A DNA stretch of 64,000 nucleotides from a virus, in the IMG/VR virus record IMGVR_UViG_3300023708_001015, one strand, 5' to 3'. The position numbers were made by a program, and so were the translations under genes. The notes below the pieces were generated by a model. It was not told the origin of the DNA. It saw only the letters and a list, made by a program, of their open reading frames with translations, and searched no databases. Each line of letters opens with the position of its first letter. Position 1 is the stretch's first letter. This document shows, in pieces, positions 27,278 to 28,688 of the stretch.

Positions 27278-27673
27278 ATGCAATACTTTACTTACCTATG
27301 GTTCGATAAGAACCGAAAAATGTTCTATATTGGAATGCACGAAGGTTCCGATGAAGATGGTTATGTGTCTTCATCTAGATGGTTTAATGGCGAACAACAA
27401 TATAGACCAAATGATTTTACTCGTAAAATACTCAAAATGTTTGATAATAGAGCCTTAGCTAGAAAAGAAGAAGCTAGACTGTTAGCTATGATCAAAGATT
27501 CTGAATATGGTAAACGATACTACAATCTTAAAAATGGTCGAAAGAAGGGTACTCCAGCTTCCAACAAAGGTAAACCGATGTCAATGGAACAGCGAGAAAA
27601 ACTAAGGTTAGCTAAACTCGGTAAACCATCGGCACGTAAAGGTATACCGAATAAAATTAAAAGTGCTGACTGA
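27278..27673 (+). mobile_element. Free-standing Seg-like GIY-YIG homing endonuclease with NUMOD3-like tail
   Basis: YFTYLWFD...FYIGMH...YYNLK; NKGKPMSMEQREKL; opposite strand to neighbours; own CTAAATA (27250) and GGAG. Confidence 0.75.
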
Positions 27674-27980
27674 TTGGGTAATAAGGACAGTCAGCGAAAC
27701 CTCAGGTCAAGTCAGCTTACGCTGCAAGAGCCCAAACATTATCGTTTGCATTTACTTAGTTTGCTTGATTTACGGTCATCGCCTACCGTGCTGTCCACTT
27801 GTTTACTTGTTGCCCTGTCGAAACCATGGCATCCCCATCAAAAGTATACTAGCCGAACTCCCGAACGTCTTCAGGCTTTGTTTAACAGGTACACTCTGCA
27901 CTAATACACTTTTGGTGGAGATGGCGGGAGTCGAACCCGCGTCCAGAACACTTTTCTCTTTGCTTCATACAGCAATAACT
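27663..27980 (-). ncRNA. ssrA: Circularly permuted (two-piece) tmRNA
   Basis: Acceptor piece with T-arm and CATCTCCACCA ends at 27913; intervening hairpin 27912-27837; coding piece begins GGGGATG at 27836 (G3.U70 pair); tag ANDNVWALAA* at 27749-27717; outer ends approximate. Confidence 0.9.
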
Positions 27981-27983
27981 CTA

Positions 27984-28012
27984 ATTATACTCTACAATTT
28001 CTTGCAAGGCAA
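27984..28012 (-). promoter_or_regulatory. Sigma70-like promoter of the tmRNA
   Basis: TTGCCT-17-TATAAT. Confidence 0.75.
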
Positions 28013-28013
28013 A

Positions 28014-28688
28014 TCAGATATTGTATTTATTCTTATAGTCTAGTCGTAACTTACGGAATGGACCAATCCAGTTATCACGTTTCTCGATAAACCATCGTGG
28101 ATCGTCATTCTCAACTGCCATCAAAATTGCAAGACGACCAATAGGAATTCCAGTACGTTCTTCAAATGCAACAGCATAAGCTGCACATTGCATAAAGTAG
28201 TGGTAAATGTCTTCTCGATCTTTAGGCTTGCTTGCTGTCTTGAAGTCAATAACAGTCAGCTTACCTTGAAACTCAGCGATACAGTCAACCGTTCCAGCAA
28301 CCTGTAAGTGATCAGAGTACAGTGGAGTTTCTAAGCAGTGGATGTTATCAATCTGATCGAGTAAGAACTTGATAGAGTTGAACATCTCCAAGTCAAACAT
28401 ATCAGCTTCGAATACATTTCCACGAAGATAATCCTCACAATACTGGTGAATCCGAGTGCCACGTGCTGATGCTCGTCCAGAGATTCGATTAGCTTCTTCA
28501 GCACCAACTCTCTGTCGCCATTTGGCAATTCCTTCTGCAGTTGCTTGTCCTGTGATTGTTGTTACGCTTGGATACGAAAAACCCGATGGAGTCAGATATG
28601 TTCTTTTTCCATCGGGTCTTGTGTCACGTACTAGTTTCGCAAAATCATGATGTATAAAGTTTTTCATTAAGTCAGTAGGTGAATACAC
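28014..28688 (-). CDS. PD-(D/E)XK (Cas4/RecB-like) exonuclease
   Basis: PSVTTI...RGTRIH...E..L...AGTVD...IDFKT...Q..AYA. Confidence 0.85.
   Translation of the reverse strand: MYSPTDLMKNFIHHDFAKLVRDTRPDGKRTYLTPSGFSYPSVTTITGQATAEGIAKWRQRVGAEEANRISGRASARGTRIHQYCEDYLRGNVFEADMFDLEMFNSIKFLLDQIDNIHCLETPLYSDHLQVAGTVDCIAEFQGKLTVIDFKTASKPKDREDIYHYFMQCAAYAVAFEERTGIPIGRLAILMAVENDDPRWFIEKRDNWIGPFRKLRLDYKNKYNI

What the first reader, a model, noticed from the sequence alone, without database searches (positions are those of the whole stretch)
27663..28012. Circularly permuted two-piece tmRNA encoded by a T4-like phage
Seen: after a TTGCCT-17-TATAAT promoter the tRNA-like 3' half comes first (GGACGCGGGTTCGACTCCCGC-CATCTCCACCA, ending 27913). 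A 76-nt spacer closed by AAAAGTGTATTAG/CTAGTATACTTTT follows, then the 5' half GGGGATGCCATGGTTTCGACAGGGC (from 27836) and the tag GCA AAC GAT AAT GTT TGG GCT CTT GCA GCG TAA (ANDNVWALAA). The acceptor stem GGGGATG/CATCTCC has the G3.U70 alanine determinant. Known: permuted ssrA occurs in Alphaproteobacteria and in some cyanobacterial and betaproteobacterial lineages; tRNA scanners and standard annotation often miss it. Inference: either captured from such a host, which gives a host clue, or an independent permutation. The Trp in the tag looks atypical to me.
Basis: partly seen in the sequence, partly recalled or inferred. Interest (0 to 1): 0.85.

Follow-up and report, generated by a model that had tools for sequence, protein, structure and literature searches.

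The report
Phage-encoded two-piece tmRNA, beta type
An uncultivated T4-like phage carries an intact, circularly permuted gene for the ribosome-rescue RNA (tmRNA); such genes are already documented in related aquatic phages, so this is a well-supported new example, not a new kind of thing.

Summary
On the minus strand there is a sigma-70 promoter, an acceptor piece ending in CCA at 27913, a 76-nt hairpin spacer, and a coding piece from 27836 with tag ANDNVWALAA, then a terminator. ARAGORN calls it permuted. Rfam tmRNA_permuted scores 146 bits and beta_tmRNA 118 bits.

The window is a T4-like myovirus. Its nearest cultured relatives are Melnitz and the Pelagibacter myophages, at only about 42% identity in gp6.

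At least 73 of 80 related IMG/VR contigs carry the gene directly after the same exonuclease gene. Stems show compensatory changes, G3.U70 is invariant, and tag codons vary synonymously. Complete relatives lack SmpB and carry 26-33 tRNAs.

Phage two-piece tmRNAs are already published (Buchholz 2022). This scan followed up an identical sequence on other DNA (e1-3411664) with the same verdict.

Added here:
- Melnitz and HTVC008M hold an alpha-type tmRNA at the same PhoH-exonuclease-tmRNA locus, while this clade holds a beta-type one.
- Phage copies encode CCA and have long spacers, unlike Rhodocyclales genes.
- The closest bacterial genes lie in an unnamed small-genome, low-GC Burkholderiales subgroup. 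The host clue is weak.

The parts
27984..28012 (-). Sigma-70-type promoter, -35 TTGCCT (28012-28007), 17-nt spacer, -10 TATAAT (27989-27984)
   Evidence: A TTGnnn-17/18-TATAAT promoter is found at the same distance (-10 end about 70-72 nt before the CCA end) in 59 of 70 related phage genes.
27913..27977 (-). Acceptor piece of the precursor: P2b strand UGCUG (27974-27970), P2a strand UGUUCUG (27950-27944), T arm (27940-27924), 3' acceptor strand CAUCUCC (27923-27917), discriminator A plus encoded CCA (27916-27913). The 5' end near 27977 is inferred from the promoter.
   Evidence: T-arm pair 2 occurs as GC/AU/UA/CG and is paired in 56 of 56 unique relatives.
27837..27912 (-). Intervening segment (76 nt) to be excised. 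A 12-13 bp closing helix stacks on the acceptor stem, two small internal hairpins follow, and UGAU lies just 5' of the coding piece.
   Evidence: MFE -25 kcal/mol, z -2.4. Helix position is conserved in 38 of 51 phage and 36 of 57 bacterial spacers. Length in relatives is 26-200 nt.
27655..27836 (-). Coding piece: 5' acceptor strand GGGGAUG (27836-27830), D-loop analogue with GGUUUCGAC, P2a strand CAGGGCA (27817-27811), P2b strand CAGCA (27793-27789), hairpin at the PK1 position (27788-27773), tag frame, 3' hairpin. The 3' end is approximate.
   Evidence: The acceptor stem covaries (GGGGAUG/CAUCUCC, GGGGGUG/CACCUCC, GGGGCAG/CUGCUCC) with G3.U70 invariant.
27717..27749 (-). Tag reading frame: resume codon GCA at 27749, ANDNVWALAA, stop UAA at 27719-27717
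   Evidence: In relatives the amino acids are kept while codons vary synonymously, for example Leu8 as TTG/TTA/CTT/CTA.
27650..27695 (-). Intrinsic terminator: 8-bp stem GCUGACUG/CAGUCAGC (27695-27688 and 27672-27665) with a 15-nt loop, then a U-rich tail
   Evidence: fold. It matches the first 3' hairpin of the beta_tmRNA model. The simple terminator scan missed it because of the long loop.
28014..28688 (-). Upstream neighbour: PD-(D/E)XK exonuclease gene, the conserved anchor of the locus
   Evidence: Pfam PF12705 and phrog_298 at E 9e-72. It has 38% identity (E 2e-44) to the Melnitz PDDEXK nuclease, which also lies just upstream of that phage's tmRNA.
27278..27673 (+). Convergent 131-aa ORF, a homing-endonuclease fragment. 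Its last 9 nt overlap the 3' arm of the tmRNA terminator. It is not part of the tmRNA.
   Evidence: phrog_314 homing endonuclease at E 2.6e-13, matching only profile positions 177-305 of 574.

Best explanation
This is a functional, phage-encoded, circularly permuted ssrA gene of the beta type. Shown: gene order, intact tRNA-like and tag elements, and purifying selection across a large phage clade. Inferred from established tmRNA biology: host RNA polymerase transcribes a precursor of about 320 nt from a sigma-70 (early-type) promoter. The two acceptor strands pair, with the spacer hairpin stacked on them. RNase P cuts 5' of G27836 and 3' trimming exposes the encoded CCA at 27913, which releases the 76-nt spacer. 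The acceptor piece (about 65 nt) and the coding piece (about 180 nt) stay joined by the acceptor stem and helices P2a and P2b. Host AlaRS charges the RNA through G3.U70 and A73. Host SmpB, which the phage does not encode, and EF-Tu deliver it to ribosomes stalled on broken mRNAs. Translation resumes at GCA 27749 and appends ANDNVWALAA, an ...ALAA degron for ClpXP-type proteases. The likely benefit is to keep ribosomes free during infection, when host transcription stops and mRNAs are cleaved. The gene would act as part of a broad phage translation kit, since complete relatives carry 26-33 tRNAs.
For: ARAGORN calls a permuted tmRNA with a tag. RF04321 scores 146 bits and RF01850 117.6 bits against a gathering score of 84. 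The promoter is present and conserved in 59 of 70 relatives. The MFE fold recovers the T arm, the acceptor stem and the stacked spacer helix, z -2.65. The gene is present after the same exonuclease gene in 70 of 80 related contigs by ARAGORN, plus L061 by Rfam, plus L032 and L047 cut by contig ends. It is also present in three complete terminal-repeat genomes. Compensatory changes occur in the T arm, acceptor stem, P2a and P2b, with G3.U70 invariant. Tag codons vary synonymously while the amino acids stay the same. SmpB is not found in three complete relatives, Melnitz or HTVC008M. Complete relatives carry 26-33 tRNAs.
Against: There is no expression, processing, charging or tagging data, and the host is unknown. 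I found no convincing second stem for pseudoknot PK1, only a hairpin. The beta_tmRNA score is far below bacterial members (169-313 bits), and the model's last hairpin is absent in the window. SmpB was checked in relatives, not across the whole of this window's own genome. Four related contigs with enough flank lack the gene (L026, L031, L035, L060), so it is dispensable for some relatives.
Confidence: 0.8

Rival explanations
1. The gene serves mainly as counter-defence. The phage brings its own tmRNA because host abortive-infection nucleases or toxins (mRNA interferases, or nucleases that hit stable RNAs) flood the cell with non-stop ribosome complexes or destroy host tmRNA. The phage copy restores rescue capacity in the way phage tRNAs replace cleaved host tRNAs.
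For: The gene has an early-type promoter. It occurs together with very large tRNA sets in complete relatives. It is conserved but not universal in the clade, as is typical of accessory arms-race genes. The phage sequences are much more diverse than the bacterial ones.
Against: No defence or anti-defence gene is demonstrably linked to the locus. No tool result addresses cleavage of host tmRNA. This is a refinement of the main explanation with the same molecular mechanism, not a different molecule.
Confidence: 0.2
2. The RNA is a decoy that inhibits host trans-translation. It would titrate SmpB or AlaRS without productive tagging, as reported for the TLD-only RNA of mycobacteriophage DS6A.
For: A TLD-only phage RNA was reported to inhibit tmRNA (PMC4131195). 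The phage lacks SmpB, so it competes for the host protein.
Against: The tag frame is complete, starts with Ala, ends ALAA-stop and evolves under coding constraint with synonymous codon changes. A decoy would not need this. All helices that join the two pieces are kept.
Confidence: 0.05
3. The gene is a non-functional passenger: a relic of host DNA capture, an attachment-site fragment, or an assembly chimera.
For: ssrA fragments are common at prophage ends (PMC9004378). A homing-endonuclease fragment lies next to the gene, which marks a recombination-prone spot.
Against: The gene is full length with its own promoter and terminator. It sits in the same place in more than 70 independent contigs and 3 complete genomes. 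Covariation and synonymous change show selection. A T4-like backbone is not known to integrate.
Confidence: 0.03

Closest known systems
Bacterial beta-type two-piece tmRNA (Rfam RF01850), as in Rhodocyclales such as Azonexus/Dechloromonas, Thauera, Azoarcus and Accumulibacter
   Same: The gene order is permuted. The T loop is canonical (UUCGAnU). The P2a strands are GUUCUGGAC and GACAGGGC. The tag is 10 aa of the form ANDxxFAxAA. The spacer hairpin starts right after ACC and ends 4 nt before GGGG. RF01850 is the best-scoring model of its clan.
   Different: The window scores 118 bits against 169-313 for bacteria. CCA is fully encoded in 67 of 68 phage genes but in only 7 of 76 Rhodocyclales-type genes. 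The phage spacer is 26-200 nt (median 77) against 4-44 nt (median 28). The resume codon is GCA, not GCC. The second 3' hairpin of the model is missing.
Native ssrA of an unnamed small-genome (1.6-3.0 Mb), low-GC (36-45% locally) Burkholderiales subgroup (loci L212, L271-L275)
   Same: CCA is encoded in 6 of 6. UGAU precedes GGGG in 3 of 6. The resume codon is GCA or GCU. Tags are ANDENFALAA, ANDESYALAA and ANDDKFALAA. A 29-nt stretch in the PK1-position hairpin matches the window exactly. Identity to the window tmRNA is 71-74%, the highest of any bacterial group sampled.
   Different: These are chromosomal single-copy genes with short 30-35 nt spacers. Over the whole phage clade this subgroup is no closer than the Rhodocyclales type (25 of 54). 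The taxon is not named by the tools.
tmRNA of Methylophilales phage Melnitz and Pelagibacter phage HTVC008M (Buchholz et al. 2022, PMC9004378)
   Same: Both are related T4-like myoviruses (gp6 about 42% identical). Both genes are permuted, encode CCA and have UGAU before GGGG. Both sit at the same locus, PhoH then one or two small genes then an orthologous PD-(D/E)XK exonuclease then the tmRNA.
   Different: They are alpha type. RF01849 is their best model (107 and 84 bits), their T loops are GGCAGUA and UGCAAUA, and they group with alphaproteobacterial genes at 100/99 support. Melnitz also has a glutamine riboswitch after the gene, which the window lacks.
tmRNA of Stenotrophomonas T4-like phages (Menderavirus: Marzo, Mendera, Moby)
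   Same: It is a permuted beta-type gene in a T4-like phage, with CCA encoded and UGAU before GGGG. These phages are listed as 'Permuted' in Buchholz Table S1.
   Different: The gene lies inside the tRNA array, not after the exonuclease gene. The tag is VAANDDSYTVRIAA or ANDDSYTVRIAA. Identity to the window tmRNA is only about 62%.
One-piece tmRNAs of mycobacteriophages (Bxz1 group) and Bacillus phage G, and the TLD-only RNA of DS6A
   Same: All are phage-borne ssrA-derived RNAs (PMC4131195).
   Different: They have the standard unpermuted gene order or lack a tag altogether, and their phages and hosts are unrelated.

Membership tests
tmRNA (SsrA) | tRNA-like domain: 7-bp acceptor stem with G3.U70, discriminator A73 and a 3' CCA | tested here: met
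   GGGGAUG pairs with CAUCUCC, followed by ACCA. G3.U70 is invariant in 56 unique relatives, and pair 5 covaries as GC/AU/CG.
tmRNA (SsrA) | T arm with a canonical T loop, plus the D-loop analogue GGUUUCGAC | tested here: met
   GCGGG-UUCGACU-CCCGC. Pair 2 occurs as four pair types and is always paired. GGUUUCGAC is invariant in the clade.
tmRNA (SsrA) | Internal tag reading frame that starts at an Ala resume codon without a start codon and ends in a hydrophobic ...LAA degron plus stop | tested here: met
   ANDNVWALAA-stop. The clade pattern is ANDxx[F/Y/W]ALAA with synonymous codon variation.
tmRNA (SsrA) | Pseudoknot PK1 between helix 2 and the resume codon | tested here: inconclusive
   A 4-5 bp hairpin is present at 27788-27773. 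By inspection I found no complementary partner for its loop downstream. The alignment of this region was poor. The Rfam models annotate only a hairpin here.
tmRNA (SsrA) | Alanylation, SmpB binding and trans-translation activity | not testable with these tools
   These need biochemistry or genetics. Only the identity elements are seen.
Permuted (two-piece) tmRNA, RF04321 | Gene order: 3' tRNA-like half, then intervening segment, then 5' half with the tag. The score must exceed the gathering threshold. | tested here: met
   146 bits against a gathering score of 47, full model 1-213. ARAGORN flags the gene as tmRNA*.
Permuted (two-piece) tmRNA, RF04321 | Inter-piece helices (P2a, P2b) that hold the two pieces together | tested here: met
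   P2a UGUUCUG/CAGGGCA is paired in 55-56 of 56 sequences with covariation. A P2b helix of at least 6 bp occurs in 51 of 51 unique relatives, with compensatory variants UGCUGU/ACAGCA and GGUUGU/ACAACU.
Permuted (two-piece) tmRNA, RF04321 | The precursor is processed into two RNA molecules | not testable with these tools
   Only the substrate-like fold is seen: a conserved closing helix and a 4-nt leader ending in U.
Beta-type permuted tmRNA, RF01850 | Score over the family gathering threshold and the best score among clan members | tested here: met
   117.6 bits against a gathering score of 84. Complete relatives score 95-118 on the beta model and 53-70 on the alpha model.
Beta-type permuted tmRNA, RF01850 | Typical traits of bacterial members: CCA not fully encoded, 24-42 nt spacer, two 3' hairpins | tested here: not met
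   In the window CCA is encoded, the spacer is 76 nt and the second hairpin is absent. These are habits of the Rhodocyclales members, not formal criteria. The small-genome bacterial subgroup also encodes CCA.
Alpha-type permuted tmRNA, RF01849 | Non-canonical T loop GGCRGUA, and the alpha model scoring best | tested here: not met
   The window T loop is UUCGACU. All 29 alphaproteobacterial genes sampled have GGCGGUA, GGCAGUA or GGCAGUG. The alpha model is out-scored by the beta model.

The most novel reading that the evidence does not exclude
Phages, not only vertical descent, link the 'independent' lineages of permuted ssrA. One conserved phage locus (PhoH-exonuclease-tmRNA) holds an alpha-type gene in Melnitz and HTVC008M and a beta-type gene in this clade. 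The clade mixes alpha-like characters (encoded CCA, UGAU leader, AACAGAA loop in the 3' hairpin) with beta-like ones (canonical T loop, P2a sequence, 10-aa tag). Phage sequences are more diverse than the bacterial beta-type genes. The beta-type gene occurs in only a few patches of Burkholderiales, and as extra copies in Herbaspirillum and Cupriavidus. So T4-like phages may have carried a permuted ssrA between bacterial classes and seeded the patchy beta-type distribution, or they repeatedly swap the gene with host copies in situ.
Probability: 0.12. Interest if true: 0.7.

Novelty: new member of a known kind. Interest (0 to 1): 0.35.

Why it matters
No phage tmRNA has been tested for function. 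A gene kept at one locus across a large, abundant, uncultivated T4-like clade, together with near-complete tRNA sets and no SmpB, argues that ribosome rescue is a resource these phages need to supply for themselves. The comparative data give concrete handles for experiments: phage-specific encoded CCA, long variable spacers, and a lineage swap at a fixed locus. They also caution against using tmRNA type as a host predictor.

Tried and rejected
- **Close relatives in GenBank phages.** Megablast of 20 kb of the window against the INPHARED phage collection found none. No whole genome is held for the window.
- **Glutamine riboswitch.** It is present after the Melnitz gene but not in the window at the gathering threshold.
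- **SmpB.** Not found in three complete relatives, Melnitz or HTVC008M. I did not scan every ORF of the window.
- **PK1.** I found no convincing second stem by inspection.
- **Bacterial donor or host from the tree.** AU tests did not reject any grouping tried. The p-values were 0.40 for the window clade alone, 0.22 for all beta bacteria, 0.17 for all phages together, 0.56 for the small-genome subgroup plus the clade, and 0.63 for all beta bacteria including the subgroup. The direction of transfer is therefore unresolved on this short RNA.
- **Bacterial scan motif.** It missed the small-genome subgroup (...ACAGGGA), which only surfaced through even sampling of the order.
- **Sampling around G073.** The genus and 'relatives' samples were uninformative.
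- **Sharkady and Williams 2004** (PMC516066) is not held, so statements about that paper rest on how PMC9004378 and PMC11915505 cite it.
- **Simple terminator scan.** It missed the terminator because the loop is 15 nt. Folding shows it.
- **P2b shuffle control.** It was weak (mean helix 6.6 bp against 5.6 bp). The support for P2b is its compensatory variants, not helix length.

Full report
**Observation.**
- ARAGORN finds a single RNA gene in the 64-kb window. It is a permuted tmRNA (tmRNA*, 27626-28005) with tag ANDNVWALAA.
- Rfam gives two matches over threshold. tmRNA_permuted RF04321 scores 146 bits (gathering score 47, E 8e-29, 27717-27974). beta_tmRNA RF01850 scores 117.6 bits (gathering score 84, E 4e-35, 27658-28026) and is the best model of its clan.
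CCA ends at 27913, the 5' G of the coding piece is at 27836, and the spacer is 76 nt.

**Anatomy, read 5' to 3' on the minus strand.**
- The promoter is TTGCCT-17-TATAAT at 28012-27984.
- The acceptor piece runs from about 27977 to 27913. It holds the distal helix-2 strand UGCUG, the proximal strand UGUUCUG, the T arm GCGGG/UUCGACU/CCCGC, the 3' acceptor strand CAUCUCC and ACCA.
- The spacer spans 27912-27837. Its ends form a 12-13 bp helix that stacks on the acceptor stem, and UGAU is left before the coding piece.
- The coding piece starts at 27836 with GGGGAUG. It continues with the D-loop analogue GGUUUCGAC, the partner strands CAGGGCA and CAGCA, a small hairpin where PK1 normally lies, and the tag frame at 27749-27717.
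- An 8-bp terminator hairpin with a 15-nt loop and a U-rich tail closes the gene (27695-27650).
- The MFE fold of the whole precursor recovers the T arm, acceptor stem and spacer helix, with z -2.65.

**What the window is.** It is a T4-like myovirus.
- It encodes gp6- and gp5-type baseplate proteins, a gp32 SSB, RNA ligase and NAMPT.
- It also encodes PhoH, Cpn10 and a PD-(D/E)XK exonuclease.
- Nothing similar at the DNA level is in the GenBank phage collection.
- By gp6 protein, the nearest cultured phages are Methylophilales phage Melnitz and the Pelagibacter phages Mosig and HTVC008M, at about 42% identity.

**Conservation.** I searched IMG/VR with the exonuclease encoded just upstream. That gave 80 related loci, including complete 162-171 kb genomes with terminal repeats.
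- ARAGORN finds a permuted tmRNA just downstream in 70 of them.
- Rfam adds L061, and L032 and L047 have the gene cut by the contig end.
- Three loci end too early to tell.
- Four loci with enough flank lack it: L026, L031, L035 and L060.

Across 56 unique genes the evidence for selection is strong.
- T-arm pair 2 occurs as GC, AU, UA and CG and is always paired.
- Acceptor pair 5 occurs as GC, AU and CG.
- G3.U70 never changes, and P2a covaries.
- P2b is a helix of at least 6 bp in all 51 unique cases, with compensatory variants.
- Tags follow ANDxx[F/Y/W]ALAA. Conserved residues use several synonymous codons, for example Leu8 as TTG, TTA, CTT and CTA. This shows that the frame is read.
- A near-consensus sigma-70 promoter sits at a fixed distance in 59 of 70 genes.
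- The Trp variant is rare (the window, L049 and L028) and occupies the always-aromatic position.

**Lineage and the locus.**
- The window, its complete relatives and Stenotrophomonas phage Marzo score best with the beta model. Melnitz and HTVC008M score best with the alpha model, and Melnitz also carries the published glutamine riboswitch.
- Scored on both models, the clade gets 95-118 bits (beta) against 53-70 (alpha). Melnitz gets 25 against 107, and HTVC008M 56 against 84.
- A discrete character agrees with this. All 29 sampled alphaproteobacterial genes, Melnitz and HTVC008M have a non-canonical T loop (GGCRGUA or UGCAAUA). The clade has UUCGAYU.
- In a joint tree the alpha bacteria plus Melnitz plus HTVC008M form one side of a branch at 100/99 support.
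- Yet the gene sits at the same place in all three phage lineages: PhoH, one or two small genes, an orthologous PD-(D/E)XK exonuclease (38% identity, E 2e-44), then the tmRNA.
- So a permuted tmRNA at this locus probably predates the split of these phages, and its type has been exchanged at least once. Alternatively, the locus captured such a gene repeatedly.

**Comparison with bacteria.**
It returned 72 permuted genes, mostly from Rhodocyclales, with tags ANDE[RQH]FA[LIVM]AA.
- Even sampling showed the beta form over threshold in only 4 of 151 genomes of that order, at 169-313 bits. It reached threshold in 6 of 81 genomes of one family.
- Rhodocyclales-type genes encode the full CCA in 7 of 76 cases and have spacers of 4-44 nt. 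The phage clade encodes CCA in 67 of 68 and has spacers of 26-200 nt.
- All four phage groups (this clade, Marzo, Melnitz, HTVC008M) share an encoded CCA and UGAU before GGGG.
- The precursor plan is common to phage and bacteria. The helix starts right after ACC(A) and ends 4 nt before GGGG. This argues against an independent permutation.
- The six family hits come from small genomes (1.6-3.0 Mb, local GC 36-45%). Their single native ssrA looks most like the phage genes. CCA is encoded, the resume codon is GCA or GCU, and the tags are ANDENFALAA, ANDESYALAA and ANDDKFALAA. They share a 29-nt exact match with the window and are 71-74% identical to it, against 58-72% for the Rhodocyclales type.
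- This hints at the host lineage, and the phage GC of about 41% fits. But across the whole clade the two bacterial groups are equally distant, and AU tests reject none of the alternative groupings.

**Mechanism.** The sequence has every element needed for a two-piece tmRNA. The steps beyond that are inferred from established tmRNA biology as summarised in PMC11915505 and PMC9004378: processing by tRNA-end enzymes, alanylation, SmpB and EF-Tu delivery, tagging and proteolysis.
- Complete relatives lack SmpB, so the RNA must use the host protein.
- They carry 26-33 tRNA genes, against 4 in Melnitz and 1 in HTVC008M. The tmRNA is therefore part of a large translation-RNA repertoire.
- The early-type promoter fits a role in keeping ribosomes free once host transcription stops and mRNAs are degraded. 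A more specific counter-defence role is possible but untested.

**Known or new.**
- Phage two-piece tmRNAs are published. Buchholz et al. 2022 describe the Melnitz gene. They count 53 unique two-piece forms among 18,146 phage genomes and list the Stenotrophomonas phages as permuted.
- The 2025 tmRNA database holds 79 unique phage sequences.
- I found no functional study of any phage tmRNA.
- This scan already followed up an identical sequence on other DNA (e1-3411664) and called it a clean new example of the beta type. Several other first-reader notes describe genes of the same clade. My results agree.

**Caveats.**
- The trees rest on about 166 aligned columns with long branches.
- The bacterial sampling is sparse.
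- The tally of 60 of 61 alphaproteobacterial genomes with an alpha-type gene includes one unpublished genome (G199). No locus from it was used.

Noticed in passing
window 27278-27673 (+): A 131-aa ORF on the opposite strand matches only the middle of a homing-endonuclease profile (phrog_314, positions 177-305 of 574). It ends inside the 3' arm of the tmRNA terminator. It is probably a decayed homing-endonuclease gene next to the tmRNA.
   Followed up: partly
L183, L201, L208 (Herbaspirillum spp. genomes): These genomes carry a permuted tmRNA with an encoded CCA and odd tags ANEPQFVAYGT, ANQPQYIAYGT and ANESQYLAFGT, which do not end in the usual Ala-Ala degron. A weaker second tmRNA hit lies elsewhere in the two genomes searched (L183, L201). 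In trees these copies fall near the phage clade, not the Rhodocyclales.
   Followed up: partly
L108, L192, L195 (Cupriavidus); L196 (record titled Pseudomonas indica): Rhodocyclales-type permuted tmRNAs occur in genera outside Rhodocyclales. Cupriavidus pinatubonensis has a second, weak tmRNA hit as well, which suggests an extra, horizontally acquired copy.
   Followed up: no
3' hairpin of the coding piece: window 27695-27665; relatives L002-L081; L084, L085, L212, L241-L270: The loop of the 3'-terminal hairpin carries AACAGAA in 29 of 29 alphaproteobacterial genes, Melnitz, HTVC008M, 53 of 55 window-clade genes, L212 (the only gene of the small-genome subgroup that was scored) and the Herbaspirillum copies. 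It is in only 2 of 71 Rhodocyclales genes, which have CCUUGUUACCAAAG. The window itself is an exception in its clade, with a Rhodocyclales-like CCUUAUUACCCAAU. Its function is unknown. The motif cuts across the alpha/beta division.
   Followed up: partly
relatives, e.g. L048 (200 nt), L018 and L069 (about 177-184 nt), L004-L006 (142 nt): The intervening segment varies from 26 to 200 nt within one phage clade. Some members also have an insertion of about 70 columns at the PK1-position hairpin. I did not examine what the long inserts contain.
   Followed up: no
G001, G002, G003 (complete relatives; loci L086-L088): Complete genomes of this clade carry 26-33 tRNA genes in arrays. The 64-kb window has none. 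Melnitz has 4 and HTVC008M has 1.
   Followed up: partly
L130 (Candidatus Accumulibacter adjunctus): In this bacterial permuted gene the segment between ACCA and GGGG is only 4 nt (CUGC), so there is essentially no spacer hairpin.
   Followed up: no
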